Below, piece by piece: positions 2,059-35,943 of a stretch of 48,579 nt of DNA (position 1 is its first letter; each line of letters begins with the position of its first letter). The notes beneath the pieces were generated by a model, which ran no database searches, was not told where the DNA came from, and saw only the letters and a list, made by a program, of their open reading frames with translations. The translations under genes were made by a program, and so were the position numbers. This DNA comes from Candidatus Angelobacter sp. (GTDB lineage Bacteria; Acidobacteriota; Terriglobia; Terriglobales; Acidobacteriaceae): NCBI GenBank assembly GCA_036270475.1, contig DATBCN010000055.1, positions 1-48,579 of the forward strand. Direction: 5' to 3'.

Positions 2059-2101
2059 TTCTTTTGAGGTATGCGAAAAGGCTTTATCAGGAGACCATAC
2101 A

Positions 2102-4647: not shown

Positions 4648-6117
4648 TTATTTTAACCGAGTGTATTTCAGATCAGCCTTGATGCCACTTTTGGGCTTCC
4701 CGCCGGCAGTAGTTTGCTGACCCAAAACCACGCACGCCGGAATCTTGATCTGTACTTCGCATCCTGCAGTGTCCGTTCTGTTCTGGATCGTCAATCTTCC
4801 GCCGTGCGCCTCAATGATCTGACGGCAAAGCACAAGGCCAATTCCGGTGCCGGTTTCCTTGGTGGTGTAGAAAGGCACAAAGAGATTTGAAGCGTCAAGC
4901 AGGCCCACGCCCCGGTCGCGCACCCAAAGCTCCAGATCATTCCCCGCGACACTCCAACTCATGCTGACGGCAGGCCCATCGTTAAAGGCGGGCATTCTCT
5001 CAATTGGATATTTTGTGATGACCGATTCAGTCCCATTCTTGGCGAGATTGATGAGCACCTGCTCAAGCTGGTCCGGGTCTACATTGATTGCGATATCAGG
5101 GCTGGGCAGCACCGTGACTGCGAGCCTTGCTTCCAGGCCGCTCACCCGCTCAGCCATATTTTTCAGGTCGATTGGGCGGCGCGTGGGTGGCGGCAGCTTG
5201 GATAGCTGGGCATAGCTTTGCAGAAAACGATTCAGCGCTTCCGCACGCGTGCCAATTACGTCGAGCCCAAGATCAAAGTCCTGATGGACCCTTTCCGGCA
5301 GCACGTTCTGTGACAGAATTCTACGCAGAGTGCGGGCCACCGATTTGATGGGAGCCAGAGAATTGTTGATCTCATGACTCAGCACGCGCACCATGCGCTG
5401 CCACGCCAGCCTCTCTTCCGCGCGCAACGCTTCTGACGCTTCAGAGAGCATTACCAGGTGGTGTGGGACGCCATTTTGGCGGAAGTGCGTGCGCCGCACG
5501 ATCCACCGCCTTTCAATGCCATTGGTGAGACGGGAAATCGTTTGCGACGTTGGACCGCCAAGAAGGTCGGCAATGCCTAATTCCCTGGCGTCCTGGTCTG
5601 CCAGCTCCTCTTCCCTCTTGCCGAGGAAGGCCGCAGCGGCGCGATTAAATAGTTTCAGCTTCCCATCGAGAGAAAAGGCCAGGATCACGCCTTCGGCTTC
5701 CGCAAGGACTTTGCGCAGAAGATTTTCCGCTTCCATCGTTCCCAGGCGCTCTGACTCCAGGGCCTGAGCCAGGTTGTTTATCTCGATTGCCAGGTCGCCC
5801 AGCGCGTCGCCAGAGACCGCGCGAGTGGCGCGAAAGGAGAAGTCGTCTTCCTTGAGAGATGCAACCACATTGGAAAGCACGCGGACGGAATTGACCACGC
5901 GATTACGCGCGGCAAATCCCAGGCCGAACCACAATAGTACGGAAAATACAGTGCCTTCAATCTTGTGGTCGAGCGAATAAGAGTTGCTCCAAAGCAGAAC
6001 GAAGCCCAAAATGGCGCAGGGAAGCCCCGTGCCAAGTACAGAAAGAAGCAATCGTCGTTCAAACGGCAGTGAAAACCGCCGCTTACTATTTTTCTTTCTT
6101 GACTGCGGAAGGAACAT
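4648..6117 (-). CDS. Sensor histidine kinase (2 TM, HAMP/PAS-like, HisKA, HATPase_c), NtrB/AtoS-like
   Basis: 489 aa. The H-box is LSHEINNSLAPI, the N-box NLAKNGTES, and the G-boxes DRGVGL and TGTGIGL. It overlaps the 3' end of the upstream response regulator gene by 32 nt. Confidence 0.85.
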   Translation of the reverse strand: MFLPQSRKKNSKRRFSLPFERRLLLSVLGTGLPCAILGFVLLWSNSYSLDHKIEGTVFSVLLWFGLGFAARNRVVNSVRVLSNVVASLKEDDFSFRATRAVSGDALGDLAIEINNLAQALESERLGTMEAENLLRKVLAEAEGVILAFSLDGKLKLFNRAAAAFLGKREEELADQDARELGIADLLGGPTSQTISRLTNGIERRWIVRRTHFRQNGVPHHLVMLSEASEALRAEERLAWQRMVRVLSHEINNSLAPIKSVARTLRRILSQNVLPERVHQDFDLGLDVIGTRAEALNRFLQSYAQLSKLPPPTRRPIDLKNMAERVSGLEARLAVTVLPSPDIAINVDPDQLEQVLINLAKNGTESVITKYPIERMPAFNDGPAVSMSWSVAGNDLELWVRDRGVGLLDASNLFVPFYTTKETGTGIGLVLCRQIIEAHGGRLTIQNRTDTAGCEVQIKIPACVVLGQQTTAGGKPKSGIKADLKYTRLK

Positions 6118-7588
6118 AGAGGCCGTGTTTTTCCATTCGCCGGTAGAATGTTCCCCGGCTCAGTCCCAGCACCTCGGCTGCCTGGCTCACGTTTCCGTTA
6201 TAGCGGGCCAGTGCCTTGCCGATCAACTGTGCTTCCACTTCTTCCAGGCTCAATTCAGCGAGATTGGCGGTTCGGGCATTGCTGGCAGAGGGAAGGCCCA
6301 AATGGTTCACGTCAATCTTCTCATCACGGCACATCAGGACGGCGCGTTCAATCGTGTGGTCCAGCTCCCTGACGTTTCCCGGCCAGTAATACTCCAGCAG
6401 TTTTTCCATTGCTTCCGGTGTGAAGCCATCAACCTGCTTGGTGTAGCGCTGGGTATATTTGTGGAGGAAATGTGAGGAGAGCGCGGGTATGTCTTCCCGC
6501 CTTTCGCGTAGAGGAGGTAAGGGAATTTCCACCGTATTCAGCCGGAACAACAAGTCTTCGCGGAAGCTTCCGTCGGCGCATGCGGCCTTAAGATTGGCAT
6601 TGGTGGCGGAAATTACACGCACGCTGACCTTCTGCGTCCGCGATGACCCCACGCGCTCCATTTCGCCGGTTTCAAGCACGCGCAAAAGCCTTGCTTGCTG
6701 CCGCATGGGAACGTTGGCAATTTCATCCAGGAACAATGTCCCGCCGTCGGCCATTTCAAAACGGCCAATGCGATCTGTGCGCGCGTCAGTAAAGGCGCCT
6801 CTTACATGGCCAAACAGCTCGCTTTCAAAAGTGCCTTCAGGCAGGCCGCCGGTATTCACTGTGATCAGCGGTTTATCCGCGCGGCGTGAAACCGCGTGCA
6901 ACATCTGTGCGACAACTTCCTTGCCGCTGCCATGTTCGCCGGTAATTAAGACGCTGGCATCAGACGGGCCAATTTGTGCAATCGCTTCGCTGACTGGCCG
7001 CATCGCGGGCGCCTGGGCCACAAAGGTGGTGCGGCCCTGGTTCCGCATCAACTGGTTTTCAGCCAACAGCCGCTGCCCTTGCCGCAAGGCCCTGTACAGC
7101 TCGGCATGGACCGTAATAGTGGAAACGAGCCGTTCGTCATCCCATGGTTTCTGGACGAAATCGCGGGCGCCGCGGCGCACTGCCGCAACGGCCAGATCAA
7201 TGGTGCCCCAGGCAGTCATGACGACAATGGGCAACTGGTTGTCAATTTCTCTCACCCGGTCAAGCAGTTCAATGCCCTCCCTGCCTGAAGTGGTGTCACG
7301 CGCGTAATTCAGATCAAGCAGCACGGCGTCATATTCCCGCAATGCCAGTGACTCCAGCACCACCTGGGGTGAGCGTACGGTGTCCACTTCAAAATGATGC
7401 GATCTGAACAACAATTTCAGCGCATCCAGCACGGCTGGCTGGTCGTCAGCTATCAGGACCCGGTAAGGCTGCTCATTGATACGCATAAGGGTATCGGTGT
7501 TGTCGGAGAGGAACGTTACACCAGGCCTTGAAAAGAAGCCGGTTGCGTCCACGAGCGATGGCAGGAAGCTCTCTCTGGTTTCCATCAC
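6086..7588 (-). CDS. Sigma-54-dependent response regulator (REC + AAA+ + Fis-type HTH), NtrC family
   Basis: The receiver is YRVLIADDQ...LLDLNY. Walker A is GEHGSGKE, the GAFTGA variant is GAFTDA, and Walker B is LFLDEI. The C-terminal HTH is GNVSQAAEVLGLSRGTFYRRM. The GTG at 7588 overlaps the permease stop (GTGA). An ATG at 7585 has a GAGGG SD 7 nt upstream, and M35 (7486) is a further possible start. Confidence 0.9.
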   Translation of the reverse strand: MMETRESFLPSLVDATGFFSRPGVTFLSDNTDTLMRINEQPYRVLIADDQPAVLDALKLLFRSHHFEVDTVRSPQVVLESLALREYDAVLLDLNYARDTTSGREGIELLDRVREIDNQLPIVVMTAWGTIDLAVAAVRRGARDFVQKPWDDERLVSTITVHAELYRALRQGQRLLAENQLMRNQGRTTFVAQAPAMRPVSEAIAQIGPSDASVLITGEHGSGKEVVAQMLHAVSRRADKPLITVNTGGLPEGTFESELFGHVRGAFTDARTDRIGRFEMADGGTLFLDEIANVPMRQQARLLRVLETGEMERVGSSRTQKVSVRVISATNANLKAACADGSFREDLLFRLNTVEIPLPPLRERREDIPALSSHFLHKYTQRYTKQVDGFTPEAMEKLLEYYWPGNVRELDHTIERAVLMCRDEKIDVNHLGLPSASNARTANLAELSLEEVEAQLIGKALARYNGNVSQAAEVLGLSRGTFYRRMEKHGLYVPSAVKKEK

Positions 7589-10074
7589 TCGGCCCTCAGC
7601 ACTACCATGGGTTCAATTGCTGTTGCGCGTGCAGCGATTACCAGGCTGGTCAAGAAAGCAATTGTTACAAGAAGCAGGGCTGCGGTTGCAAGAATTCCTA
7701 TGGTAGCGTCGGGCGTATTATAAATTAACGTACCAAGGAATTTAGCCAGAAAAATACTGGCTGCCGAGCCAAGCAGGATGCCAATGGCCACCAGCCCAAC
7801 CCCCTGTTTTACGATCAAACCTATTACCTGCGGCCTTTTGGCCCCTACAGCTACTCTCATGGCGATCTCCCTGGTACGCAAAATTAGCTGATAACTCAAT
7901 ATTCCATACAAACCCACCGCGGTCAGCAGCAGGGCAAAGGCCCCAAAAGCGCCAATCAATGACACATAAAAACGCGGCCGGGCCAAGGAAGTTGACACAA
8001 CCTGGGTCAGAGGCCGCAAGGACACTATCGCCAGATCGCGGTCAGCCCCGGTCAAGGCATGACGGAGCGATTCATAAACGTTGGCATATCTGTCAGAGCG
8101 GACAACAATCGAGGTTGGAAACAACCGGTTCATGAACGCCGTAATCTGGTCCGGCGCCTGTTTGGGATCAATAAAGACGGTGGGCGGTGGAAGTTTTTCC
8201 AGTCCTGTCTGCCGGACATCGGCAACCACCCCAATGACTTCACGCGGAACATCAGAAAACTGGCTGCCCAATTCGCTTCCCATCGCCACCATTTTTCCGA
8301 GTGGTGATTGATTGGGCCACCATTGCCGCGCCAGCCCCTCGCTCACGATTGCTACTGGCTTGTTGCCGCGATCATCGCGGTCTGAAAAAAATCTTCCGGC
8401 AAGGAGTGGTATACGAAGAGTGCGAAAATAATTGGCACTGACAACTCGAAACTGGGATTCTCCATACGGGCTGCTGTCCTGGACATCGGCGGGATACATG
8501 GGTATGCCCAGCCCCTGTTCCAGCGGCAAGCCGTTGATGCTGGCGACCGACTCCACTCCGGGAACATCTTTTAGCTGGGCGATCACTCTGTCCAGGAGCT
8601 GCGCCGTGGCTGCGGTTGTTGTATAGCGATCAGGCGCCAGGGAAATCTGCCCCACGGAAACGTTGTGCGGGTCAAAGCCTGGCTGGACCGATTGCAGCTT
8701 TAAAAAGTTTTGCAACAATGAAGCGGTCCCCGCCAGCAGGAGTAACGTCAGGGAAGTCTGGGCTGTAACGAGCATCCGGCCAAGCCGCGTCTGCTGGATA
8801 CTGTGACTGCCGGTTTGGGCGGATTGACGGATCATATCGTTCAAACTAACGCGGGACATCCTGATGGCCGGCGTGAGCCCGGATAAAACCGCCGTTGCCA
8901 CGGAGATAGTCAACACAAACAGGAGCACGTGCATGTCCATCCTGATCGTGCCGCTGAGCGGCAAGTCCGCCGGCACAAACCAACTGATGAAGGGAATCAG
9001 CTCCTTGCCGGCAATACTGCCAATTACTCCGCCAGTTATGCAGATTAGGATTCCATCCATCAGGAAAGTCCGGATCAACCGCCGCCTGCTGGATCCCAAA
9101 GCCGCCCTGATGGCAAACTCGTGGCCGCGGGCGGCGCCGCGAACAGTGAGGCATAGAGCCAGATTGGTGCATGTAATCAAAAGGACGAATATGACTGCGC
9201 CAAATAAGGAGAGAATACTTTTACGGACGCCCGAAACGATAAAATCCTGCAACTGATCTGGCGCCAGAGAAATGTCATCTGCTATGGAACGCACTGGATA
9301 AGTAAGGCGATAGTCTGCCGTCGAGGCCAATTCCTGCCGGGCATCCTGGAGGCTGATTCCGTCTCTCAAGCGCGCAATGACACGATACTCGTTTCCCGCA
9401 TCGAGAGTGGCCGAACTCAAAGGGAGCGGCAGCCACAGGTCCGCATCCGGATATGACTGAAACCCTTTTTGCATAATGCCCACGATGGAGTAGGGTTCCC
9501 CATTGATGTGAATTTCGCTTCCTACTGCGGACGCATCCTTGTTGTAATCCTGTTCCCACAAACCATAGCTCAGGATCACCACCCGTGGTCCGCCAGCCTG
9601 TTCTTCGTTTGGACTGAATTCTCTGCCCAGCACGGGGGAGGAGCCAAGGGTGCGAAAGAATTCCAGGGAAACCTGTTGCGCTTGCTTATATTGTGGCGAT
9701 CCCATGGCCGCCACGTTTACACCTGCATTCACACCCGCGTTTACGCCATGGACCGCGGCAATATCTCTAAAGGAACGCGAGCGTTCTTTCAGCATGAAAA
9801 ATGCTGGCGCCGAAATGTCTCTGGTTAGCCGTCCCTGGGAATTGTGCCAGGTGATAATCACCAGCCGGTCAGGGCTTATATAAGGTAGAGGGCGCAATAG
9901 GGAAGCGTTGACGATGCTGAAAACGATGGTGTTCGCGGCGATTCCCAGAGCGAGAGTAATGATTCCCATAGCGGCAAAACCGGGCGTCTTTTGGAGCGAA
10001 CGCATGGAATAGGATATGTCTTGAAGAAGCGTTCGCATTACCCTTACCGGCCCTCCTCTCTGCTTCACAAACAA
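7585..10074 (-). CDS. MacB/FtsX-type ABC transporter permease, duplicated orphan (ADOP-like) family
   Basis: 829 aa. It has the same N-terminal signature as the 2102 gene (LLQDISYSMRSLQKTPGFAAMGIITLALGIAANTIVFSIVNA) and two FtsX-like TM blocks. It is the first gene of a permease-RR-HK minus-strand operon. Confidence 0.85.
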   Translation of the reverse strand: MFVKQRGGPVRVMRTLLQDISYSMRSLQKTPGFAAMGIITLALGIAANTIVFSIVNASLLRPLPYISPDRLVIITWHNSQGRLTRDISAPAFFMLKERSRSFRDIAAVHGVNAGVNAGVNVAAMGSPQYKQAQQVSLEFFRTLGSSPVLGREFSPNEEQAGGPRVVILSYGLWEQDYNKDASAVGSEIHINGEPYSIVGIMQKGFQSYPDADLWLPLPLSSATLDAGNEYRVIARLRDGISLQDARQELASTADYRLTYPVRSIADDISLAPDQLQDFIVSGVRKSILSLFGAVIFVLLITCTNLALCLTVRGAARGHEFAIRAALGSSRRRLIRTFLMDGILICITGGVIGSIAGKELIPFISWFVPADLPLSGTIRMDMHVLLFVLTISVATAVLSGLTPAIRMSRVSLNDMIRQSAQTGSHSIQQTRLGRMLVTAQTSLTLLLLAGTASLLQNFLKLQSVQPGFDPHNVSVGQISLAPDRYTTTAATAQLLDRVIAQLKDVPGVESVASINGLPLEQGLGIPMYPADVQDSSPYGESQFRVVSANYFRTLRIPLLAGRFFSDRDDRGNKPVAIVSEGLARQWWPNQSPLGKMVAMGSELGSQFSDVPREVIGVVADVRQTGLEKLPPPTVFIDPKQAPDQITAFMNRLFPTSIVVRSDRYANVYESLRHALTGADRDLAIVSLRPLTQVVSTSLARPRFYVSLIGAFGAFALLLTAVGLYGILSYQLILRTREIAMRVAVGAKRPQVIGLIVKQGVGLVAIGILLGSAASIFLAKFLGTLIYNTPDATIGILATAALLLVTIAFLTSLVIAARATAIEPMVVLRAE

Positions 10075-10159
10075 CCTACGCGGCCTGCAATTACTCCAGG
10101 CCGGGACCTAATCATAAAAAATCCTGTGAACAGCGGAGCACGTTCATAGTTCTTCCAGC

Positions 10160-10175
10160 GCATCTTGAGGGCCTT
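10160..10175 (-). promoter_or_regulatory. Weak candidate sigma-54 promoter for the permease-RR-HK operon
   Basis: The minus strand reads AAGGCCCTCAAGATGC. GG and GC are in the 12-nt register, and the GGCC-N6-ATGC pattern matches the candidates at 2043 and 10726. The T of TGGC is missing. The nearest dyad centre (10254.5) lies 82 bp upstream, the same geometry as at ADOP-1. Confidence 0.35.
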
Positions 10176-10246: not shown

Positions 10247-10282
10247 TGTCCATCCTTGGACACTAGTGTTCATCCGTGGACA
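10247..10282. promoter_or_regulatory. Dyad pair B: TGTCCA-N4-TGGACA sites phased 20 bp apart
   Basis: TGTCCAtcctTGGACA (10247-10262) is a perfect palindrome. TGTTCAtccgTGGACA (10267-10282) has one mismatch. Confidence 0.6.
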
Positions 10283-10431: not shown

Positions 10432-10467
10432 TGTTCATCTCTGGACAACTCTTTCCAGCGCTGGACA
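10432..10467. promoter_or_regulatory. Dyad pair C: TGTCCA-N4-TGGACA sites phased 20 bp apart
   Basis: TGTTCAtctcTGGACA (10432-10447) and TTTCCAgcgcTGGACA (10452-10467) each carry one mismatch in the left half. Confidence 0.6.
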
Positions 10468-10725: not shown

Positions 10726-10741
10726 TTGGCCGTTCTCATGC
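10726..10741 (+). promoter_or_regulatory. Proximal candidate sigma-54 promoter of the lanthipeptide operon
   Basis: TTGGCCGTTCTCATGC has GG at 10728-10729 and GC at 10740-10741 in the 12-nt register. The predicted start lies about 44 nt before the precursor ATG at 10797. Confidence 0.5.
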
Positions 10742-10796
10742 TATTTAGCATGGGCGGGAACCCCCAACAAAATCTAAAAAAAGAGGAGACAAAACC

Positions 10797-10922
10797 ATGT
10801 CGAACGTACTGATGCTTCAGAGACTGCACTCCAACACCAGTTCTTCAGAATTCATGAACCTGTTTGGCAGCGCGGTAAGCACCGTTTGCCCCATTGGCGA
10901 TAGTCCGTTTCAGATGGAGTAG
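10797..10922 (+). CDS. Class III-type lanthipeptide precursor peptide (41 aa), not in the ORF track
   Basis: ATG 10797 is preceded by the SD GAGGAG (10783-10788, 8-nt spacing), and the stop is TAG 10920-10922. The product is MSNVLMLQRLHSNTSSSEFMNLFGSAVSTVCPIGDSPFQME. The leader carries VLMLQ, like the (I/V)L(D/E)LQ box of class III leaders. The core carries Ser-x2-Ser-x2-Cys (SAVSTVC). It lies 90 nt upstream of the synthetase gene. Confidence 0.65.
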   Translation: MSNVLMLQRLHSNTSSSEFMNLFGSAVSTVCPIGDSPFQME

Positions 10923-11012: not shown

Positions 11013-13703
11013 ATGCGGAGCCGACCCAATCCGTTGTATCGCTTGGTAGATAAGGATTACCACGAGAACTTTGACGCCTATGCGCCACAGAAAATGGATT
11101 TTTGTGACCTGGTTTTCGCAGGTCTTCCTGCAGGATGGGGCATTCAGCGAAGAGGCATTTGGTTTCATTGTGGTTCGCCTCAAAACGCCATGCCCCAGCA
11201 AGGCTGGAAGATTCACGTTTCCGCAACGCCGGCGAATGCGCGTGATCTGCTGCAACGTGTGAGCTCTGTACTTTTTGACAGACGAGATACCGATTTCAAG
11301 TTTGCTCTCGACATGTCAACCCTGTTCCTGCTCAACGGCAAAAATTGGTCTCGGGGCGGATCAGGAAAATTTATCACCGTATATCCCCATGACAATTATC
11401 ACTTTCTTGACCTGATGGAGCAACTCTATCGAGTCACTGAAGGGCAGCGTGGTCCATATATCCTTTCTGACCATCGTTATAAAGACAGCAACGTTCTGTT
11501 CTTTCGTTTTGGAGGTATGCGCCTCTATGACGTGCTCAATGTAAAAGGAGAGCGCACCCCCATGCTCGTGGCCCCGGATGGCACAGAAGTTCCGGACCAG
11601 AGAACAGCATATCCAGTAACGCCATCATGGGAAAATCCTCCTCTGCCCCTGGGAGACCCGGCCACGCAGCAGGAATCCCAGGGAATGAAAGGTGGGCGTT
11701 ATCAGATTCAGGATGTGCTCGATTTTTCTAATGCCGGAGGAGTGTACAGGGCGATTGACCAGCAAACTGGCAAGAAGGTTGTGATCAAAGAAGCCCGCCC
11801 GTGCATCAATTCCACGTTCGATGGCTATGACGCTGTTGAGCTGCTCAAGAAAGAGCATCGTCTGCTCACCGTCCTGAAAGACACTGGCATTGCGCCCCAG
11901 CCGGTGGATCTCTTTAAGGAATGGGAACATTGGTTTCTGGTTGAAGAATTCATCGAAGGCGATTCCATGGGCGCGCACTCCGCGCAGCACAATGTGCTGC
12001 TAAGGACCAGGCCCAGACCGGAACAGTATGAAGAGTGGTATGCAACTTTTCGTTCCGTCTGCGTCAGCCTGGCAAGGATCATGGACGTGCTGCATGCCCA
12101 CCAAATCGTCTTTGCGGATCTCTCCATCAATAATCTTATTGTGCTCGCCGGCAAGGCGGAGTTGACGCTGATTGATTTTGAAGGAGCAAGCCAGATTGGG
12201 GTTGACCGCCCAAGTACGGTTTTTACACCGGGTTTTGTTTCAGAAAACCGGCTCGCCGGATCTAACGCCGCGTATGCGGATGACTATTATTCGGTTGGTG
12301 CAGTCCTGCTCGCGTATCTGTTTCCCATCAACTCTCTTTTTCATCTCAAGCCAAAAGCGAAGCGGGAAATATTGGCCACGATTCAGAGAGATGCAAAGCT
12401 TCCCAAGGCAATCGCTGATTTGCTGCTGGATTTGATGGACCAGGATCCTGCGCGGCGGCCAGTGCCTGCCAAAATGCTGGAAGTGCTGGCTTCAGAGCCG
12501 GTAATTGAAAAGCAAATTGTTCCAGTTCCATCTGAGCGAAATTTTGAACCATTGTTGAATGGCATCGTGGCGCATATTGAACAGGCTGCAACCTATGCAC
12601 GCCAGGACCGGCTATTTCCGGCTGATCCAAAAGTGTTTGCTACCAACCCTCTTAGCCTTGCCTATGGCGCGGCTGGAGTTGGATATGCGCTCACCGAAAT
12701 CAAAGGGACCCGCTCAGATGAGCTATTAGACTGGGTCCTCCGCCACAAGATTGCACCCCAAACTTATGCCCCCGGCTTATACGTGGGTATGGCAGGGATC
12801 GCACAATGCCTGCTGGAAATGGGCGCTGTAAAGGAAGCGGAAGAACTCTTCCAGCAGACATTTCGGCATCGTTTGCTGCATGACGCTCCCGGCATTTTTT
12901 ATGGGACCGCCGGTTGGGGCATGGCGAATCTCCGGTTCTTTCTGCAAACGGGCAATCAACTTTATTTGGATGAAGCAACCAAAGCCGGCAACCATCTGCT
13001 TGAGACGTGCCTACTGGCGCCTGCCGGCTGCTTCTGGGGCACGCCCAATGAGACGCCTCTTGGATTAGCGCATGGGGCCAGCGGCATCGCGGTTTTTTTA
13101 CTGTATCTCTACCTGGCTACCCGCAATGAGGTTTTTTTAGAAGCCGGACGCCGGGGACTGGAATTTGATCTCAGCTTTGCGGTGACAACCAAAGACGGCG
13201 GTCTGTCCTGGCGTCAAGCCACGCAAGGGCAGTCGCCGCTCTTTCCATACTGGCGATTTGGCAGCGCCGGTATCGGCATGGCTGTGCTGCGCTATGCCCG
13301 GGTCCTGCGCACGGAAAACTATCAATCAATCCTGGAAAAAATCTTTATCGATACTGACCGCAAATACGTGGTCCTTCCGGGAAAGTTCATTGGTCTGGCG
13401 GGAATCGGCGATTTCATGCTCGATATGCATCAGTTTACCGGTGAGGCCAGATACCTTGAATCCGCCATAAAAGCGGCTGAAGGCATTCAGAAATTCCGCG
13501 TCGAGAGACAACAAGGCATAGCGTTTCCCGGAGATATGCTTTCCCGGCTCTGTTGTGACTACGGCACAGGCAGCGCGGGAATTGGACTCTTTCTGAACCG
13601 TCTTCTGCGCCGGCGAAAGAGTGACTTCATGTTGGATTGCCTGTTAGAACAATCCGGACTGCTGCCATCGTTGCAGCAAATACAAGTATCGCAATCGGCG
13701 TGA
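11013..13703 (+). CDS. Class III (possibly IV) lanthipeptide synthetase: N-terminal phospho-Ser/Thr lyase, central Ser/Thr kinase, C-terminal LanC-like cyclase domain
   Basis: 896 aa. Lyase-domain marks are QGWKIHVS and GKFITVYP. Kinase marks are VVIKEARP (Lys), the FADLSINN catalytic loop and LIDFEG. The cyclase repeats are GLAHGASGIA, then WRFGSAGIG where zinc-type LanC has WCxG, then LCCDYGTGSAGIG. At least one zinc-ligand Cys is therefore absent, which is class III-like. Confidence 0.85.
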   Translation: MRSRPNPLYRLVDKDYHENFDAYAPQKMDFCDLVFAGLPAGWGIQRRGIWFHCGSPQNAMPQQGWKIHVSATPANARDLLQRVSSVLFDRRDTDFKFALDMSTLFLLNGKNWSRGGSGKFITVYPHDNYHFLDLMEQLYRVTEGQRGPYILSDHRYKDSNVLFFRFGGMRLYDVLNVKGERTPMLVAPDGTEVPDQRTAYPVTPSWENPPLPLGDPATQQESQGMKGGRYQIQDVLDFSNAGGVYRAIDQQTGKKVVIKEARPCINSTFDGYDAVELLKKEHRLLTVLKDTGIAPQPVDLFKEWEHWFLVEEFIEGDSMGAHSAQHNVLLRTRPRPEQYEEWYATFRSVCVSLARIMDVLHAHQIVFADLSINNLIVLAGKAELTLIDFEGASQIGVDRPSTVFTPGFVSENRLAGSNAAYADDYYSVGAVLLAYLFPINSLFHLKPKAKREILATIQRDAKLPKAIADLLLDLMDQDPARRPVPAKMLEVLASEPVIEKQIVPVPSERNFEPLLNGIVAHIEQAATYARQDRLFPADPKVFATNPLSLAYGAAGVGYALTEIKGTRSDELLDWVLRHKIAPQTYAPGLYVGMAGIAQCLLEMGAVKEAEELFQQTFRHRLLHDAPGIFYGTAGWGMANLRFFLQTGNQLYLDEATKAGNHLLETCLLAPAGCFWGTPNETPLGLAHGASGIAVFLLYLYLATRNEVFLEAGRRGLEFDLSFAVTTKDGGLSWRQATQGQSPLFPYWRFGSAGIGMAVLRYARVLRTENYQSILEKIFIDTDRKYVVLPGKFIGLAGIGDFMLDMHQFTGEARYLESAIKAAEGIQKFRVERQQGIAFPGDMLSRLCCDYGTGSAGIGLFLNRLLRRRKSDFMLDCLLEQSGLLPSLQQIQVSQSA

Positions 13704-15016
13704 TGCTCAAAATCGGAGGACCATTGGCTGAGAACGGCAATGACGAGAGCAATGGCGCCGTTGAAGAACGAGACGAACTAACTGGAGCGCTTGCAGACAT
13801 TTTCCTTAGGGTGCGTAAGAGCCTAATCGCCAGTGAGCCTGGCGGCGCTGCAAGTTCTGATGTTTCAGTTCAGGGTGGGGAAAGAATTTATGTCCCGGAA
13901 GGCCCACAACTCTATGACGGGACCTCAGGAATCGCGCTATTTTTGGCCGCCTACCACTACGCCACAAATAATCAGGACGCTCGCGATCTGGCACTGCGTT
14001 CCGCGGCGCGTCTGCGTTTCGCAATCAAGCAAAGTGCTACAGCGGCAAGCCTCGCCCGCCAGTCCGGCAATGGAACTGGGGGGCTGGCTGGCGTGGGATC
14101 TCTTCCGTACGCCTTTGTGCATCTTGCGGCTTGGTTGAAAGTGCCTGAATTTATTGATGCTGCTCGCGAAGTGGCCACCAATATCATGCCGGAACAGATC
14201 ATGGCGGAAGAACGCCTTGATGTTATGCGCGGCTGTGCGGGTACATTGCTGGCCCTTCTGTCCTTTATTGAAGAAGTGACCGCAATGGGCATGGACTGTG
14301 GCATCGCGCCGGACCTTGCCCTACTCTGCGGGCGGCGATTACTGGAAAAACGCATCTCGTATAATTCCGGTCCGCGGGCATGGTCGGCTGGGGATTCGCT
14401 TCCACTCTCAGGATTTGCCCATGGCGCGGCAGGCATTGCTTATGCCCTGGTCCGGCTCTTTCAATACACTGGACAGGAAGAATTTCGCGATGCTGCCATC
14501 GAAGGATTCGCTTTCGAACGTACTCTTTATATTCCGGAACTTCAAACCTGGTTCGATCCTCGCTGCAATCTGCCATTGAGCAAAGCTTCGTGGTGCGAGG
14601 GTGCGCCCGGAGTGGCGCTGGGTATTTTGGGCAGCATGATCGCAATTGATTCACATGCCTTACGCCATGATCTTGAACAAGCGCTCAGCATTACCCGCAT
14701 GCTTCCTGAAGGGCCAGTCGACCATTTATGTTGCGGCAATTTTGGCAGAGTTGAGATCATGAATATTGCGGGCAGCGTCCTGGGCCGGTTGCAGCTTACC
14801 GCGCACGCCCGCCAACTGGCCACGCAACTCCTGGCTCGCGCGGCCACTTCCGGCTTCCGCTTTCAACCCATTGATCATCAGCCCTCCTTACCTGACATGT
14901 CTGAAAATAATCCATCTCTATTTCTTGGGCTGGCTGGAGTGGGTTATACCTTGCTGCGGCTGAATTACCCTGATCTTTTTCCCTCAGTCCTGCTGCTGGA
15001 CACAATCGTCCTATAG
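13703..15016 (+). CDS. Stand-alone LanC-like lanthionine cyclase with a full zinc-ligand set
   Basis: ATG 13703 overlaps the LanKC stop (TGATG). The ORF track extends it to 13637. Motifs are SGFAHGAAGIAYAL (GxAHG), SWCEGAPGVALG (WCxG) and HLCCGNFG, which has Cys-Cys where NisC has Cys-His, as in three-Cys LanM cyclase domains. There are seven GxxG-type repeats. Confidence 0.8.
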   Translation: MLKIGGPLAENGNDESNGAVEERDELTGALADIFLRVRKSLIASEPGGAASSDVSVQGGERIYVPEGPQLYDGTSGIALFLAAYHYATNNQDARDLALRSAARLRFAIKQSATAASLARQSGNGTGGLAGVGSLPYAFVHLAAWLKVPEFIDAAREVATNIMPEQIMAEERLDVMRGCAGTLLALLSFIEEVTAMGMDCGIAPDLALLCGRRLLEKRISYNSGPRAWSAGDSLPLSGFAHGAAGIAYALVRLFQYTGQEEFRDAAIEGFAFERTLYIPELQTWFDPRCNLPLSKASWCEGAPGVALGILGSMIAIDSHALRHDLEQALSITRMLPEGPVDHLCCGNFGRVEIMNIAGSVLGRLQLTAHARQLATQLLARAATSGFRFQPIDHQPSLPDMSENNPSLFLGLAGVGYTLLRLNYPDLFPSVLLLDTIVL

Positions 15017-15076: not shown

Positions 15077-15112
15077 TGTCCGTGACCGGAATGGAGCGTC
15101 CAACGCTGGACA
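15077..15112. promoter_or_regulatory. Dyad pair D: TGTCCA-N4-TGGACA-like sites phased 20 bp apart
   Basis: TGTCCGtgacCGGAAT (15077-15092) has a weak right half. CGTCCAacgcTGGACA (15097-15112) has one mismatch. The proximal centre lies 60 bp upstream of the GG of the sigma-54 promoter at 15164. Confidence 0.5.
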
Positions 15113-15161
15113 GAAATAGCTCATGGAATTCAATTAAAGCTTGTTAATTCAATAAAACTGA

Positions 15162-15177
15162 TTGGCAACATTCTTGC
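15162..15177 (+). promoter_or_regulatory. Sigma-54 (-24/-12) promoter of the enhancer-binding-protein gene
   Basis: TTGGCAACATTCTTGC(A) is a near-consensus match to TGGCAC-N5-TTGCA with the correct register (GG 15164-15165, GC 15176-15177). It lies 96 nt upstream of ATG 15273. Confidence 0.7.
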
Positions 15178-15272
15178 ACATTCAATAAGCGAAAGTGAGT
15201 ACCAGACGGCCACCTGAAAAGTAGCAAGAAGCAGCCATCAGGTTTGCGAAATGCCGGAAACCAATATTCGCG

Positions 15273-16976
15273 ATGACGAAAACAGATGACCTCTTTTTTG
15301 CAGCCAAGAGATTGAGAGGAACGGTTATGGGCGCCATATACTTTTCTTGCGATCAGGAATCATTGTTCATGGGATTGTCAATATTGCTGCGCGGGATCTC
15401 TTATCCCAGCCAGGCGGGAGAAACCATTGCCTCATCGTTCGAATCGGCAGCTAGGGGGCTTGGCGCCGCCCGCGGTGGATTGTTTTTGGTTCGGCACCAC
15501 CCGTCCGCAACTCGTTTGGAAACGCTGTGTCATTATCAAATGAACCCACAACATATCCGTGCCATTGAGTACGGTACTGATTCTGAAGATGCTGCCACTA
15601 GCCGGATCTGGAAAATTTTCAGCCAATGGGATGCAGGAACAAGCTCCTGGAAGGCTGGACCAATCGAGAAGGCAGCACCCAACTTGTACGTCATTTGCAT
15701 TCCGATCATAGACCCGGTACTTGATTCACCCGTTGCTGTTTTGCATTTTGAAAAAGAGACTGAGAACAACCCAGAGTTTGAGGCGGTGGCAAAAGAGTGG
15801 ATCACTCCATACGCGCTTGCACTGGGGCAAATCCTGAACCTTGGCTTCTCATCCACACAGGTCGAGATCGAAAGCGATGGAAAAGCAATCGATATCAAAA
15901 CGCCCGAGAATGCTCCGGAGTTGATTGGTGTTTCGGTGCAGACCCAGGCCTTGCGCCAGGAGCTGCACGATATTCACATTCCCGCGGCAAGCGCCCCAGA
16001 TCCTGACCCGATTCTGATCCTGGGTGAAAAGGGAACGGGCAAGGACCTGATTACGCGATATATCTATGCCTACAGCACGCGCCGCAATCGGCCCTATGTG
16101 GCGGTGAATTGTGCGGAGATCACGGATGAACTGGCAAGCGCGCGTTTCTTTGGGCATAAAAAAGGCTCTTTTACCGGATCGCTGGCCAACGAGCCTGGGC
16201 TATTCAGAGCGGCCGACCACGGCGTGCTCTTTCTTGATGAGATAGGCGATCTCTCACTCAAAGCGCAGGGAACTTTACTGCGCGTGCTGGAGAACCGCAC
16301 TGTCGTCCCGCTTGGGGAAACCAGAGAACAGCGAATTGATGTGCAGGTGATTCTGGGGACCAACTGTGATCCAGACCGCGCTGTTGCCGAGGGACGTATG
16401 CGTCCTGATCTTCTTGATCGTTTTCGCACTCAGGCAATCCGGCTGGCCCCGTTACGCGAACGGCCATGGGACATTCCCGCGCTGGTCCGTCATTTCATCG
16501 CTTACAACGAGAAGCGCACCCAGAAAAAAATCCTCAGCCTCCACGCCGATGTGCTGAAGATGCTGGTCGGGTATTCCTGGCCGGGCAACGTGCGGGAGTT
16601 GGCAAGGATATGTTCCTTGCTGGTTACGCATGTGAAGTCTGGCAGCCCAATTGATGCAGCGCTGTTCAGCCGGGTCATTCCTAATATCGGGAAGGAAGAA
16701 TGGAACCCTAAGGCTGGCGCAATGCTCGTGGGGAACGTTCCTATGCGGGAAGCCCTGGAAACCTTTGGACGTGAACTGATTCTTGCTCGTCTGCGGCAGC
16801 ACAACTGGAACATCAAGTCAGCGCGCGAAAGCCTTGGCCTTCCCAAAACAACGTTTCATCGTTATACACGCGCCCTGGGAATCGCCGGTTCCGTTCGCGA
16901 CGAACTAGCAGGAATAGAACAGTTCCCATATCCGACAAAACCGTTTGCTGGCGGAGGAATTCCCGCACTCAGTTGA
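15273..16976 (+). CDS. Sigma-54-dependent transcriptional activator (N-terminal sensory domain, AAA+, C-terminal HTH); no receiver domain
   Basis: 567 aa. Walker A is GEKGTGKD, the GAFTGA variant is GSFTGS, and Walker B is LFLDEIGDL. WPGNVREL and the HTH NIKSARESLGLPKTTFHRY are present. The ~230-aa N-terminal region looks GAF-like (tentative). Confidence 0.85.
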   Translation: MTKTDDLFFAAKRLRGTVMGAIYFSCDQESLFMGLSILLRGISYPSQAGETIASSFESAARGLGAARGGLFLVRHHPSATRLETLCHYQMNPQHIRAIEYGTDSEDAATSRIWKIFSQWDAGTSSWKAGPIEKAAPNLYVICIPIIDPVLDSPVAVLHFEKETENNPEFEAVAKEWITPYALALGQILNLGFSSTQVEIESDGKAIDIKTPENAPELIGVSVQTQALRQELHDIHIPAASAPDPDPILILGEKGTGKDLITRYIYAYSTRRNRPYVAVNCAEITDELASARFFGHKKGSFTGSLANEPGLFRAADHGVLFLDEIGDLSLKAQGTLLRVLENRTVVPLGETREQRIDVQVILGTNCDPDRAVAEGRMRPDLLDRFRTQAIRLAPLRERPWDIPALVRHFIAYNEKRTQKKILSLHADVLKMLVGYSWPGNVRELARICSLLVTHVKSGSPIDAALFSRVIPNIGKEEWNPKAGAMLVGNVPMREALETFGRELILARLRQHNWNIKSARESLGLPKTTFHRYTRALGIAGSVRDELAGIEQFPYPTKPFAGGGIPALS

Positions 16977-17084: not shown

Positions 17085-17405
17085 ATGATAGAACCATGGT
17101 TCGACCCAATTCGATATTCGTGGATTACAGGCGTTACGTTTGGTGCAATAGCACTGGCGCTGGGTGCGCTTGCAGCATGGCTCGTTCCTAAAGGCAAAGC
17201 CAAAGGGTTTATTGTTAGCTCATGGGTGGGCTTGTGGGCTGCGGCAATCATTCTTCTGATTACGGGAATCGTGGCCTTCCACGATCAGCAGCCCTGGGGC
17301 GTGTGGTATGGCCTGCTGCTGCCGGGCATTGTTGGTACCGCGGTAGTCGGAGGGAACCTGTTTGTCATCCTAAAGCGATACCATGAAGTGGAGCACCGCC
17401 AGTAG
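17085..17405 (+). CDS. Small integral membrane protein (3 predicted TM helices), unknown function
   Basis: 106 aa. The SD AAGGAG lies 9 nt upstream of the ATG. There are three hydrophobic stretches (ITGVTFGAIALALGALAAWLV, WVGLWAAAIILLITGIVAF, GLLLPGIVGTAVVGGNLFVIL). Confidence 0.55.
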   Translation: MIEPWFDPIRYSWITGVTFGAIALALGALAAWLVPKGKAKGFIVSSWVGLWAAAIILLITGIVAFHDQQPWGVWYGLLLPGIVGTAVVGGNLFVILKRYHEVEHRQ

Positions 17406-24756: not shown

Positions 24757-24760
24757 TTTC

Positions 24761-32787: not shown

Positions 32788-32798
32788 CCGTAGGCGAA

Positions 32799-35941: not shown

Positions 35942-35943
35942 GA

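What the first reader, a model, noticed from the sequence alone, without database searches (positions are those of the whole stretch)
15077..15178. The GAF-like sigma-54 activator gene carries its own near-consensus sigma-54 promoter and the same dyads (autoregulatory loop)
TTGGCAACATTCTTGCA (15162-15178) is the best sigma-54 promoter match in the window, and it precedes the activator gene itself. Sixty bp upstream of its GG sits CGTCCAacgcTGGACA (15097-15112). A weaker half-conserved site, TGTCCGtgacCGGAAT, lies exactly 20 bp further upstream. This is the same motif and phasing as in the lanthipeptide control region. The activator lies directly downstream of the LanC gene and has no receiver domain. 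It is therefore the most economical candidate for a ligand-sensing, positively autoregulated switch of the lanthipeptide operon.
Basis: partly seen in the sequence, partly recalled or inferred. Interest (0 to 1): 0.65.

Follow-up and report, generated by a model that had tools for sequence, protein, structure and literature searches.

The report
Conserved sigma-54 enhancer-promoter before activator gene
The activator gene next to a soil acidobacterium's lanthipeptide genes has its own conserved sigma-54 promoter and the same paired enhancer sites as three neighbouring promoters, but sequence alone cannot say whether it switches itself on or is switched on by a second activator in the same locus.

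Summary
TTGGCAACATTCTTGCA (15162-15178) is the only exact TGGCA-N6-TTGCA in the window. Two TGTCC-N6-GGACA-type dyads sit 20 bp apart upstream; the proximal one is centred 60 bp from the -24 GG. The window has four such dyad pairs against 0.02 expected, each upstream of a sigma-54-type promoter: ADOP1, ADOP2-RR-HK, lanA-lanKC-lanC and the activator gene.

Twelve distinct related loci from Terriglobia MAGs and soil metagenomes keep the pair, the promoter and the 59.5-61.5 bp geometry. Half-sites are fixed and spacers drift.

The activator's N-terminal domain has no Pfam GAF hit, but its predicted fold matches GAF domains, including NifA and Nlh1/2.

The autoregulation reading is only partly supported. 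The locus encodes a second sigma-54 activator, a receiver-domain type sitting in an operon with ADOP2 and a histidine kinase.
- Dyads occur beside GAF-type activators in other biosynthetic clusters with no receiver-type activator nearby.
- Dyads also occur in a homologous lanthipeptide locus that has only the receiver-type activator.

My best reading is a shared enhancer read by both activators. P(the GAF activator binds its own enhancer) is about 0.6. This is a new variant of a known kind.

The parts
15077..15092 (.). Distal dyad of the activator-gene enhancer (TGTCCGTGACCGGAAT). The outer half-site TGTCC is conserved and the inner half-site is degenerate.
   Evidence: It is conserved in 12 loci with a variable 6-bp spacer.
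15097..15112 (.). Proximal dyad (CGTCCAACGCTGGACA). Its centre is 59.5 bp upstream of the -24 GG.
   Evidence: The GGACA half-site is invariant in 12 of 12 loci and the distance is 59.5-61.5 bp in all of them.
15143..15153 (.). Conserved block GTTAATTCAAT within the A+T-rich stretch between enhancer and promoter. It may be a bending or architectural-protein site (inference only).
   Evidence: Partly invariant columns in alignment A4. No test of function was possible.
15162..15178 (+). Sigma-54 type -24/-12 promoter TTGGCAACATTCTTGCA of the activator gene.
   Evidence: It is the only exact TGGCA-N6-TTGCA in the window. TGGC-N8-TGC is invariant in 12 loci. No sigma-70 consensus promoter and no terminator lie between the LanC stop and this site.
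15327..16976 (+). GAF-like / AAA+ (Sigma54_activat) / Fis-type HTH enhancer-binding protein, 549 aa from the second Met. The ORF opens at 15273.
   Evidence: Pfam Sigma54_activat scores 168 bits. Orthologues start at MGAI.... The N-terminal model has pLDDT 81 and matches GAF domains. The loop is GSFTGS and Walker A and B are present.
17085..17405 (+). 106-aa protein with three predicted TM segments, conserved next to the activator gene. It is possibly co-transcribed.
   Evidence: tblastn finds it in all orthologous loci, inverted in L002. It has no sigma-54 promoter or dyads of its own.
10432..10467 (.). Dyad pair (TGTTCATCTCTGGACA / TTTCCAGCGCTGGACA), about 270 bp upstream of the lanA promoter.
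   Evidence: It is invariant in 7 loci.
10726..10742 (+). Sigma-54 type promoter of lanA (TTGGCCGTTCTCATGCT).
   Evidence: TTGGC-N6-C-N-TGCTAT is invariant in the 7 aligned loci (CATGCTAT in 6, CGTGCTAT in L013), and the promoter is also present in L021.
10797..10922 (+). lanA precursor peptide (MSNVLMLQRLHSNTSSSEFMNLFGSAVSTVCPIGDSPFQME).
   Evidence: It has a strong RBS and is conserved by tblastn in all loci.
11013..13703 (+). Class III lanthionine synthetase LanKC.
   Evidence: NCBIfam NF038151 scores 767.8 bits against a cut-off of 575. Pfam finds RamC_N, Pkinase and LANC_like.
13637..15016 (+). Stand-alone LanC-like protein. The ORF opens at 13637, but the real start is probably near 13706.
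   Evidence: Pfam LANC_like, E = 4.5e-47. Orthologue alignments cover 436 of 459 residues.
10247..10282 (.). Dyad pair (TGTCCATCCTTGGACA / TGTTCATCCGTGGACA), about 82 bp upstream of the minus-strand ADOP2 promoter.
   Evidence: It is conserved in all loci.
10159..10175 (-). Sigma-54 type promoter (AAGGCCCTCAAGATGCG on the minus strand) of the ADOP2-RR-HK operon.
   Evidence: GGC-N8-TGC is invariant in 5 aligned loci.
7585..10074 (-). ADOP2, an ADOP-family duplicated MacB/FtsX-type permease.
   Evidence: TIGR03434 scores 745 bits against a cut-off of 622.
6086..7588 (-). Second sigma-54 activator: REC + AAA+ + HTH_8 response regulator. It is the rival or co-binder of the dyads.
   Evidence: Pfam. 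The recognition helix LGLSRGTFYRRMEK is found in 98 of 120 relatives.
4648..6117 (-). Histidine kinase HK1 with hydrophobic N-terminal segments, read by eye as two TM helices separated by a loop of about 10 residues (intramembrane-sensing type).
   Evidence: Pfam HATPase_c (E = 1.5e-13); HisKA only below threshold (20.0 bits vs cut-off 26.9). Sequence and hydropathy are; the scan itself flagged one segment (22-40).
1935..1970 (.). Weaker dyad pair (GGTCCACGGGCGGACG / AGTCCAGAAATGGATA) upstream of ADOP1.
   Evidence: The ADOP1 orthologue in L007/L011 has a dyad or dyad pair plus a promoter in the same place.
2043..2059 (+). Sigma-54 type promoter candidate of ADOP1 (CTGGCCAGAGAGATGCT).
   Evidence: It resembles TTGGCCGTGCAGATGCA before the L007 ADOP1 orthologue.
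2102..4561 (+). ADOP1, a second ADOP-family permease.
   Evidence: TIGR03434 scores 870 bits.

Best explanation
Positions 15077-15178 are a genuine sigma-54-dependent control region.

Anatomy:
- Two TGTCC-N6-GGACA-type dyads lie 20 bp apart, that is on the same face of the helix. They form an enhancer centred 60 and 80 bp upstream of the -24 GG of a near-consensus -24/-12 promoter.
- That promoter transcribes the GAF-like/AAA+/HTH activator gene (start 15327) and probably the small membrane-protein gene after it.
- The same enhancer type serves three more sigma-54 promoters in the locus (ADOP1, ADOP2-RR-HK, lanA-lanKC-lanC). The four units therefore form one regulon.

Most likely mechanism (inferred):
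- Dimers of the GAF-type activator bind the dyads and assemble into the active AAA+ ring when the GAF domain receives its unknown signal.
- The ring remodels sigma-54 RNA polymerase at all four promoters, its own included. This gives positive feedback.
- The receiver-type activator of the ADOP2-RR-HK operon reads the same enhancer, adding a second, envelope or peptide-sensing input and mutual activation of the two regulator genes.

What is shown and what is inferred:
- Shown: the sequence elements, their statistics, their conservation, the domain content of the proteins, and the GAF-like predicted fold.
- Inferred: sigma-54 dependence, which protein binds, the sign of regulation, and the signal.

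Sub-probabilities:
- The enhancer-promoter is functional: 0.9.
- The GAF activator binds its own enhancer: about 0.6.
- The receiver-type activator binds the same dyads: about 0.6-0.7.
- Both bind: about 0.4.
For: Sequence and statistics:
- The exact promoter match is unique in the window.
- There are four dyad pairs against 0.023 expected.

Conservation:
- Twelve distinct loci, at 64-89% activator identity, keep the dyad pair plus TGGC-N8-TGC upstream of the activator gene. The set is the window, L001-L004, L013, L016, L017, L020, L021, L007 and L011.
- The proximal dyad centre is 59.5-61.5 bp from the GG in all of them. Half-sites are invariant and spacers vary, which is the footprint of a protein-binding site.

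Link between the GAF-type activator and the dyads:
- In L007/L008/L011 (NRPS/PKS-like cluster, ADOP1 orthologue, LanB-like gene) the activator orthologue and the ADOP gene both have dyads plus a sigma-54 promoter. No receiver-type activator lies within 10 kb.
- In L009 (NRPS cluster) a dyad pair lies between a sigma-54 promoter of the NRPS operon and a GG-N10-GC site before the activator gene.
- TGTCC-N6-GGACA is the top palindrome shared by intergenic DNA of GAF-activator loci, found in 4 of 6 cluster types.
- L005 has related degenerate sites in both of its divergent sigma-54 promoter regions.
- The recognition helix LGLPKTTFHRY is essentially invariant across the family.
- No second conserved enhancer-like element exists upstream of lanA.

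Protein features:
- AAA+ sigma-54 interaction domain at 168 bits, no receiver domain.
- GAF-like fold.

Evidence for the second reader:
- L024/L025 and L022/L023 carry the dyads with only the receiver-type activator nearby.
- The ADOP2-RR-HK promoter carries the best dyads.

Precedent: pairs of enhancer-binding proteins activating another enhancer-binding-protein gene, and sigma-54 control of natural-product genes, are both described in Myxococcus xanthus (PMC7910581).
Against: - There is no binding, transcript or rpoN evidence of any kind. No RNA runs hold this sequence and rpoN is not in the window.
- L024/L025 show that a homologous lanthipeptide module runs on the same dyads without a GAF-type activator in cis.
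- L012 shows no significant dyads, and L005 only degenerate ones, although their activators have the same helix.
- The L010 dyads are not next to recognisable sigma-54 promoters.
- The two activators' DNA-binding domains are only about 35% identical, so shared specificity is not a given.
- The receiver-type family is very abundant: 8000 candidates at E <= 1e-60, and the top 120 are all at least 71% identical. A copy acting in trans could therefore explain the 'GAF-only' loci.
- The GAFTGA loop is GSFTGS here.
- Pfam does not recognise GAF or HTH_8 in this protein.
Confidence: 0.45

Rival explanations
1. Cascade. Only the receiver-type activator (6086-7588, minus strand) binds the dyads, after phosphorylation by the intramembrane-sensing kinase HK1, which works with the ADOP2 permease in a Bce-like way. 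It autoregulates its own operon and turns on lanA, ADOP1 and the GAF-type activator gene. The GAF-type activator is then a downstream target, not an autoregulator, and acts on targets that have not been identified.
For: - L024/L025 hold a complete lanA-LanKC-LanC plus ADOP2-RR-HK module. It has three dyad pairs and three sigma-54 promoters and no GAF-type activator within 10 kb.
- L022/L023 hold an orphan receiver-type activator with a 20-bp-phased dyad pair next to it.
- The ADOP2-RR-HK promoter carries near-perfect dyads at about -82, and at about -86 in L024.
- HK1 appears to have two TM segments and a loop of about 10 residues.
- The family is abundant, with an almost invariant helix, so trans action in the 'GAF-only' loci is possible.
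- The dyads are absent or degenerate in the GAF loci L012 and L005.
- Cascades of enhancer-binding proteins are known in M. xanthus (PMC7910581).
Against: - It leaves the cluster-situated GAF-type activators of L007/L011 and L009 without any other candidate enhancer.
- It leaves the window's GAF-type activator without a target. No second conserved element lies upstream of lanA and the downstream gene has no sigma-54 promoter.
- It requires an unseen trans-acting copy in every GAF-only genome.
Confidence: 0.25
2. Pure autoregulation. Only the GAF-type activator binds the dyads. It is the single switch of the four promoters, and the receiver-type activator binds something else or acts elsewhere.
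For: - The dyads co-occur with GAF-type orthologues in several unrelated biosynthetic clusters that lack a receiver-type activator.
- The -60 geometry before the activator gene is identical in lanthipeptide and non-lanthipeptide clusters.
- The motif formally fits TGT-N10-ACA, the enhancer of NifA, which has the same GAF-AAA+-HTH architecture (PMC6066989).
- Candidatus Angelobacter, the genus named for L024/L025-type proteins, also has a GAF-family member (P0013) that could act in trans.
Against: - In L024/L025 and L022/L023 the only activator in cis is the receiver type, and no other enhancer candidate for it was seen.
- It would leave the ADOP2-RR-HK operon without autoregulation by its own regulator.
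Confidence: 0.2
3. The dyads are operators of some other DNA-binding protein, such as a repressor or an architectural factor, rather than enhancers for either sigma-54 activator. Alternatively, the -24/-12 match is not used and the gene is read through from the lanA promoter or from a non-consensus housekeeping promoter.
For: - No terminator-like hairpin lies between the LanC stop (15016) and the promoter, so read-through is possible.
- There is no transcript evidence.
- Acidobacterial housekeeping promoters are not covered by the sigma-70 scan.
Against: - Every dyad pair, in every locus, lies upstream of and at a fixed distance from a conserved GG-N10-GC element in the right orientation.
- TGGC-N8-TGC is invariant across 12 loci while flanking DNA drifts.
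- Each such locus encodes at least one sigma-54 activator.
Confidence: 0.07

Closest known systems
NifA-type activators and their TGT-N10-ACA upstream activator sequences at sigma-54 nif promoters
   Same: - The domain order is the same: GAF-like sensor, AAA+ sigma-54 interaction domain, C-terminal Fis-type HTH.
- There is no receiver domain.
- The dyad TGTCCA-N4-TGGACA formally fits TGT-N10-ACA (PMC6066989).
- The enhancer lies upstream of a -24/-12 promoter.
- The NifA GAF domain is among the structural matches (8jrc).
   Different: - It scores 202 bits against the NifA equivalog cut-off of 529.
- Pfam GAF is not detected.
- No nif genes are present. The targets are a class III lanthipeptide operon and ADOP permeases.
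- The half-site is longer (TGTCC).
- The sites come as 20-bp-phased pairs only 60 bp from the promoter.
Sigma-54 / enhancer-binding-protein control of natural-product genes in Myxococcus xanthus (Nla28; HsfA/MXAN4899) and the M. xanthus activator cascade
   Same: - Sigma-54 promoters and tandem activator sites lie inside biosynthetic gene clusters.
- Activator genes are themselves driven by sigma-54 promoters.
- More than one activator can act on one promoter (PMC7910581).
   Different: - The phylum differs (Acidobacteriota, Terriglobia).
- The motif differs: Nla28 half-sites are CT(C/G)CG(C/G)AG.
- The promoters here are intergenic, whereas in M. xanthus most are intragenic.
- The target is a RiPP (class III lanthipeptide), not a PKS or NRPS.
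- Nothing here has been tested experimentally.
NtrC-type autoregulation (tandem activator sites upstream of a sigma-54 promoter that drives the activator's own operon)
   Same: - Two dyads in helical phase nucleate an activator oligomer upstream of a -24/-12 promoter of the regulator's own transcription unit.
- This applies literally to the ADOP2-RR-HK operon, and by analogy to the GAF-type gene.
- (General knowledge of NtrC; not tested here.)
   Different: - Here two different regulator genes in one locus carry the same enhancer.
- Which of the two proteins reads it is unknown.
Two-component autoinduction and immunity circuits of lantibiotic clusters (NisRK/SpaRK type) and Bce-like permease-kinase sensing modules
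   Same: - A kinase, a response regulator and an FtsX/MacB-type permease are encoded divergently from the lanthipeptide operon.
- The kinase appears to have two TM segments and a minimal loop.
- (The comparison rests on general knowledge.)
   Different: - The response regulator is a sigma-54 activator, not an OmpR or LuxR type.
- The promoters are -24/-12 type.
- The ADOP permease has no adjacent ATPase gene.
- An additional cytoplasmic GAF-type activator is present.

Membership tests
Sigma-54 (RpoN) dependent -24/-12 promoter | GG and GC doublets separated by 10 nt within TGGCAC-N5-TTGCW | tested here: met
   TTGGCAACATTCTTGCA at 15162-15178 is the only exact TGGCA-N6-TTGCA in the window.
Sigma-54 (RpoN) dependent -24/-12 promoter | Intergenic, oriented toward a downstream gene, and conserved in orthologous loci | tested here: met
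   It lies 150 nt upstream of the ATG at 15327. TGGC-N8-TGC is invariant in 12 loci.
Sigma-54 (RpoN) dependent -24/-12 promoter | Upstream enhancer with sites for an AAA+ activator | tested here: met
   A dyad pair lies at -60/-80, at a conserved distance. The identity of the binder was not tested.
Sigma-54 (RpoN) dependent -24/-12 promoter | rpoN present in the genome, and an rpoN-dependent transcription start about 12 nt downstream of the GC | not testable with these tools
   rpoN is not in the window. No RNA runs hold this sequence.
Bacterial enhancer-binding protein (sigma-54 activator) | AAA+ Sigma54_activat domain with Walker A and B | tested here: met
   PF00158 scores 168 bits against a cut-off of 20.2. 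GEKGTGKD and LFLDEIGD are present. PDB relatives include NtrC, FleQ, ZraR, NifA and PspF.
Bacterial enhancer-binding protein (sigma-54 activator) | GAFTGA loop that contacts sigma-54 | tested here: inconclusive
   The loop is GSFTGS. F, T and the first two G are kept. Variants GSFTGA (40), GAFTGA (31) and GSFTGS (29) occur among the 120 relatives. Function was not tested.
Bacterial enhancer-binding protein (sigma-54 activator) | C-terminal Fis-type helix-turn-helix | tested here: met
   Pfam HTH_8 is not reported at E <= 1e-3. However, residues 481-519 align with the HTH_8 of the receiver-type activator and with the end of the NorR model. The helix LGLPKTTFHRY is conserved.
GAF domain | Sequence-profile match to GAF (PF01590 / PF13185) | tested here: not met
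   There is no Pfam hit in the window protein or in 20 close relatives even at E <= 1. More distant relatives, at about 50% identity, do carry precomputed PF13185 hits.
GAF domain | GAF fold | tested here: met
   The AlphaFold2 model of residues 1-203 has pLDDT 81.3 and pTM 0.77. Nearly all of the top Foldseek PDB matches (16 with E <= 1e-3) are annotated as GAF domains, including Nlh2, Nlh1 and NifA, at probability 1.0 and TM 0.4-0.6.
GAF domain | Ligand or signal binding | not testable with these tools
   No ligand can be inferred.
NifA | Reaches the NifA equivalog score and is associated with nif genes | tested here: not met
   TIGR01817 scores 202 bits against a cut-off of 528.85. There are no nif genes in the window.
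Positively autoregulated activator | The activator's own binding sites lie upstream of its own promoter | tested here: inconclusive
   The sites are present and conserved. Comparative evidence assigns them to the GAF type, to the receiver type, or to both.
Class III lanthipeptide gene cluster | LanKC synthetase above the family cut-off, with an adjacent short precursor gene | tested here: met
   NF038151 scores 767.8 bits against a cut-off of 575. The 41-aa precursor has an LMLQ leader motif and S-x2-S-x2-C in the core, read by eye. Both are conserved in all loci.
ADOP family duplicated permease | TIGR03434 above its cut-off | tested here: met
   The scores are 870 and 745 bits against a cut-off of 622.

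The most novel reading that the evidence does not exclude
Two structurally different sigma-54 activators read one and the same tandem-dyad enhancer. One is gated by a cytoplasmic GAF-like sensor. The other is gated by phosphorylation from a permease-coupled, intramembrane-sensing kinase. Each drives the other's gene as well as its own, which forms a dual-input, mutually reinforcing switch for a class III lanthipeptide and its ADOP permeases. In addition, the GAF-type protein belongs to a family of cluster-situated sigma-54 activators. This family, with an invariant recognition helix and a TGTCC-N6-GGACA enhancer, controls many otherwise silent NRPS, PKS and RiPP clusters of Acidobacteriota.
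Probability: 0.35. Interest if true: 0.7.

Novelty: new variant of a known kind. Interest (0 to 1): 0.5.

Why it matters
Acidobacteriota are abundant soil bacteria that are rich in biosynthetic gene clusters. Few are cultured, and I found no paper on how these clusters are regulated.

A defined, conserved enhancer (TGTCC-N6-GGACA pairs) with a -24/-12 promoter in front of a class III lanthipeptide operon, its permeases and its regulators gives three things:
- A concrete, testable regulon.
- A simple route to switching on such clusters in a heterologous host, by supplying sigma-54 plus a constitutively active (sensor-deleted) activator.
- A sequence signature for finding co-regulated genes in metagenomes.

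Sigma-54 control of a lanthipeptide cluster was not described in any paper I could find. If both activators share the enhancer, it would also be a clean natural example of two sensory inputs merged at one sigma-54 enhancer.

Tried and rejected
- **Pfam GAF assignment.** No hit in the window protein or in 20 relatives at E <= 1. The question was settled by a structure model instead.
- **N-terminal alignment of 20 sequences.** It was too diverse for the locus scan, so I used 8 sequences.
- **Transcript evidence.** Only soil DNA metagenomes hold the region, and no RNA runs do.
- **Plasmid collection.** It holds no orthologue, only generic sigma-54 activators below 40% identity.
- **Viral-contig scan for the composite dyad.** It gave one unrelated A+T-rich phage contig.
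- **A second enhancer for the GAF-type activator.** The inverted repeat GGCCCAAAAATGG...CCATTGTTGGGCC, conserved between L007 and L011, is absent from the window and from the other GAF loci. An exhaustive palindrome count over GAF-locus intergenic DNA returned TGTCC-N6-GGACA as the top motif and no alternative. The lanA upstream alignment shows no second dyad.
- **Sigma-70 promoter or terminator between LanC and the activator gene.** None was found.
- **A promoter or dyads for the small downstream gene.** None was found.
- **Rfam.** There are no RNA families in the window.
- **Using the recognition helices to tell the binders apart.** Both families are internally invariant and share a (K/R)-x-T-F-(H/Y)-R pattern, so this does not discriminate.
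- **Context look-ups.** These were exhausted (12 of 12), as were the single genome and metagenome scans. A wider census was therefore not possible.
Full report
**1. The observation**

The GG is at 15164-15165 and the GC at 15176-15177.

The promoter is the only exact TGGCA-N6-TTGCA on either strand of the 48.6-kb window. About 0.09 exact matches would be expected by simple arithmetic. The looser TGGC-N8-TGC is not enriched by itself: 19 found against 14.9 expected.

Single dyads with up to 2 mismatches are also barely enriched: 26 against 18.7. The arrangement is what stands out. Four pairs of such dyads lie 20 bp apart, against a mean of 0.023 pairs in 300 Markov simulations, with never more than one. 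The pairs start at 1935/1955, 10247/10267, 10432/10452 and 15077/15097.

**2. What lies around it**

The gene map comes from Pfam and NCBIfam:

| Coordinates | Strand | Gene |
|---|---|---|
| 2102-4561 | + | ADOP1, an ADOP-family duplicated MacB/FtsX permease (TIGR03434) |
| 4648-6117 | - | Histidine kinase HK1 |
| 6086-7588 | - | Response regulator that is itself a sigma-54 activator (REC + Sigma54_activat + HTH_8) |
| 7585-10074 | - | ADOP2 |
| 10797-10922 | + | lanA, a 41-aa precursor peptide |
| 11013-13703 | + | Class III lanthionine synthetase LanKC (NF038151, 768 bits against a cut-off of 575) |
| about 13706-15016 | + | Stand-alone LanC-like protein |
| 15327-16976 | + | The activator in question |
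| 17085-17405 | + | 106-aa protein with three predicted TM segments |

- The ADOP family and the homologue names place the window in Acidobacteriota, class Terriglobia.
- The activator has a Sigma54_activat domain at 168 bits, an AAA lid, Walker A and B, a GSFTGS version of the GAFTGA loop, and a C-terminal Fis-type HTH. It has no receiver domain.
- Its close orthologues start at the second Met, so I take 15327 as the start.
- Each dyad pair precedes a sigma-54-type promoter:
  - CTGGCCAGAGAGATGCT at 2043-2059 for ADOP1.
  - AAGGCCCTCAAGATGCG on the minus strand at 10175-10159 for ADOP2-RR-HK. Pattern scans requiring TGGC miss this site because its -24 element reads AGGC; the alignment shows it.
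  - TTGGCCGTTCTCATGCT at 10726-10742 for lanA.
  - The site at 15162 for the activator.

**3. Conservation**

A scan of species-representative genomes with the N-terminal domain found four Terriglobia MAG loci, L001-L004. The metagenome scan found L013-L017. Look-ups of individual homologues added L020 and L021.

- All of these keep the order ADOP2 / lanA-LanKC-(LanC)-activator-small membrane protein.
- In every one the activator gene is preceded by a dyad pair and TGGC-N8-TGC.
- Counting two loci of a different cluster type (L007, L011), 12 distinct sequences at 64-89% protein identity keep the proximal dyad centre 59.5-61.5 bp from the -24 GG.
- TGTCC, GGACA, TGGC and TGC are invariant or nearly so, while the 6-bp dyad spacers and the flanks drift. 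This is the footprint of a protein-binding enhancer plus promoter, not of chance.
- The lanA and ADOP2 control elements are conserved in the same way.
- Between the LanC stop and the promoter there is neither a sigma-70 consensus promoter nor a terminator-like hairpin. Read-through from lanA may therefore add to transcription from the internal promoter.

**4. The GAF claim**

- Pfam finds no GAF domain in this protein or in 20 close relatives, even at E <= 1.
- Relatives at about 50% identity do carry GAF_2 hits.
- An AlphaFold2 model of residues 1-203, built on a 20-sequence alignment, has mean pLDDT 81 and pTM 0.77.
- Nearly all of its best PDB matches are GAF domains. They include those of the sigma-54 activators Nlh2, Nlh1 and NifA, at probability 1.0 and TM 0.4-0.6.
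- 'GAF-like' is therefore supported at the fold level. The ligand is unknown.
- The protein reaches no NCBIfam equivalog cut-off (NorR, NifA, PrpR and others).

**5. Who reads the dyads?**

*For the GAF-type activator:*
- More distant family members (53-66% identity) sit inside other biosynthetic clusters: NRPS, PKS/FAS-like, LanB-like, radical SAM, MbnB-like.
- In L007/L008/L011 the orthologue has the same dyad pair and promoter at the same -61 distance. So does the adjacent ADOP1 orthologue. No receiver-type activator lies within 10 kb on either side.
- In L009 a dyad pair lies between the sigma-54 promoter of an NRPS operon and a GG-N10-GC site before the activator gene.
- A palindrome count over intergenic DNA of six GAF-locus types returns TGTCC-N6-GGACA as the top motif, in 4 of 6 types, with no alternative.
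- L005 has related degenerate sites in both of its divergent sigma-54 promoter regions.
- The recognition helix LGLPKTTFHRY is essentially invariant in the family.
- The window's lanA upstream region holds no second conserved enhancer-like element.

*For the receiver-type activator:*
- L024/L025 (Candidatus Angelobacter-like) hold a homologous lanA-LanKC-LanC module and ADOP2-RR-HK operon. LanC there is followed by urease genes instead of a GAF-type activator.
- L024/L025 nevertheless hold three 20-bp-phased dyad pairs with three sigma-54 promoters.
- L022/L023 hold an orphan receiver-type activator beside a phased pair.
- The ADOP2-RR-HK promoter carries the best dyads in the window.
- HK1 appears to have two TM segments and a loop of about 10 residues. 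That suits a permease-coupled kinase whose regulator feeds back on its own operon (the analogy to Bce-type modules is my inference).
- This family is very abundant and its helix LGLSRGTFYRRMEK is almost invariant. A copy acting in trans could explain the 'GAF-only' loci.
- Equally, Candidatus Angelobacter also has a GAF-family member (P0013) that could act in trans on L024/L025.

*Comparison of the two DNA-binding domains:*
- They are only about 35% identical.
- They share the pattern (K/R)-x-T-F-(H/Y)-R in the recognition helix.

**6. Best reading**

If the activator encoded in a module is the one that serves that module's sigma-54 promoters, then each family binds the same dyad. On that reading the window's locus has one enhancer type read by two activators with different sensory inputs. 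Each regulator gene carries that enhancer, which gives auto- and cross-activation.

| Reading | Probability |
|---|---|
| Shared enhancer (both bind) | about 0.4-0.45 |
| Cascade (receiver type only) | 0.25 |
| Pure autoregulation (GAF type only) | 0.2 |
| Something else | below 0.1 |

The probability that the GAF-type activator binds its own enhancer is therefore about 0.6.

That the element is a functional sigma-54 enhancer-promoter I rate at 0.9. Still missing are rpoN, which is not in the window, and any transcript data.

**7. Comparison with known systems**

- The architecture and the formal fit of TGTCCA-N4-TGGACA to TGT-N10-ACA recall NifA and its upstream activator sequence (PMC6066989). 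The protein is not NifA: 202 bits against a cut-off of 529, and there are no nif genes.
- Sigma-54 and enhancer-binding-protein control of natural-product genes, activator genes driven by pairs of activators, and two activators binding natural-product promoters are all documented in Myxococcus xanthus (PMC7910581).
- My literature searches found nothing on sigma-54 control of lanthipeptide clusters or of acidobacterial biosynthetic clusters.
- I therefore class this as a new variant of a known kind. The regulatory logic is familiar, but the phylum, the target and the motif are new, and the regulator wiring may be doubled.

**8. Verdict**

The decisive experiments are footprinting or EMSA with both DNA-binding domains, and reporter assays with sensor-deleted activators in rpoN+ and rpoN- hosts. 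The decisive computation is a genome-wide census of dyad pairs against the presence of each activator family.

Noticed in passing
window 6086-7588 (-), 4648-6117 (-), 7585-10074 (-): A second sigma-54 activator (REC + AAA+ + HTH_8, with a GAFTDA loop) sits in an operon with an ADOP permease and a kinase that appears to have two TM segments and a loop of about 10 residues. Its family is very abundant in Terriglobia and has a nearly invariant recognition helix.
   Followed up: yes
window 10125-10148: The inverted repeat TGTGAACAGCGGAGCACGTTCATA lies just downstream of the minus-strand ADOP2 sigma-54 promoter, in the presumed 5' leader. It is conserved in the window and L001-L003. L004 has a different, stronger hairpin at the same place. 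It could be an operator or a leader RNA structure.
   Followed up: partly
L024/L025 (2695-12812 and 13067-13274): This is a homologous class III lanthipeptide plus ADOP2-RR-HK locus without the GAF-type activator. Urease genes follow LanC instead. It has three dyad pairs, one of them in front of an AraC-type gene with its own sigma-54 promoter (TTGGCATATGCATTGCT).
   Followed up: partly
L005-L012, and the loci without DNA: The GAF-like activator family, with its invariant helix LGLPKTTFHRY, is repeatedly embedded in NRPS, PKS/FAS-like, LanB-like, radical-SAM and MbnB/HvfC-type clusters of Acidobacteriota. Many of these have near-consensus intergenic sigma-54 promoters, for example four in L005.
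   Followed up: partly
window 41300-41316 (-): Another good intergenic sigma-54 match, TTGGCACAGCCGGTGCT, lies about 200 bp upstream of a Ser/Thr kinase-TPR gene (38865-41096, minus strand). No phased dyad pair lies upstream of it. A Pkinase-TPR gene also sits directly upstream of a GAF-family activator in the locus.
   Followed up: no
window 10634-10648 and 10727-10741: TGGCCGTTCATACGC lies 93 bp upstream of the lanA promoter TGGCCGTTCTCATGC and shares TGGCCGTTC with it. It has GG-N10-GC spacing, but it is not conserved in the other loci.
   Followed up: partly
L003 about 2530-3140: About 600 bp of extra DNA separates the two dyad pairs of the ADOP2-lanA intergenic region in L003 (this intergenic region is 1226 bp in L003 against about 725 bp elsewhere). 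The nature of the insertion was not examined.
   Followed up: no
window 22280-36000: A second biosynthetic-looking region is present: two ketosynthases, HMG-CoA reductase, a sigma-70-family (ECF-like) protein, an amine-oxidase/desaturase-type flavoprotein, an acyltransferase, two ABC1 kinases and an RPE65-type carotenoid oxygenase. It has no dyad pairs.
   Followed up: no
L022 2610-2774 (-), promoter at about 2845: A Cys-rich 54-aa ORF lies downstream of a good sigma-54 promoter (TTGGCACATTAGTTGCT) and a phased dyad pair, next to an orphan receiver-type activator. It may be another peptide precursor.
   Followed up: no
L007 3781-3860 / L011 3755-3815: A long inverted repeat, GGCCCAAAAATGG-N-CCATTGTTGGGCC, is conserved between two orthologous NRPS/PKS-type clusters. 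It lies between divergent sigma-54 promoters. It is absent from the window and the other loci, and its binder is unknown.
   Followed up: partly
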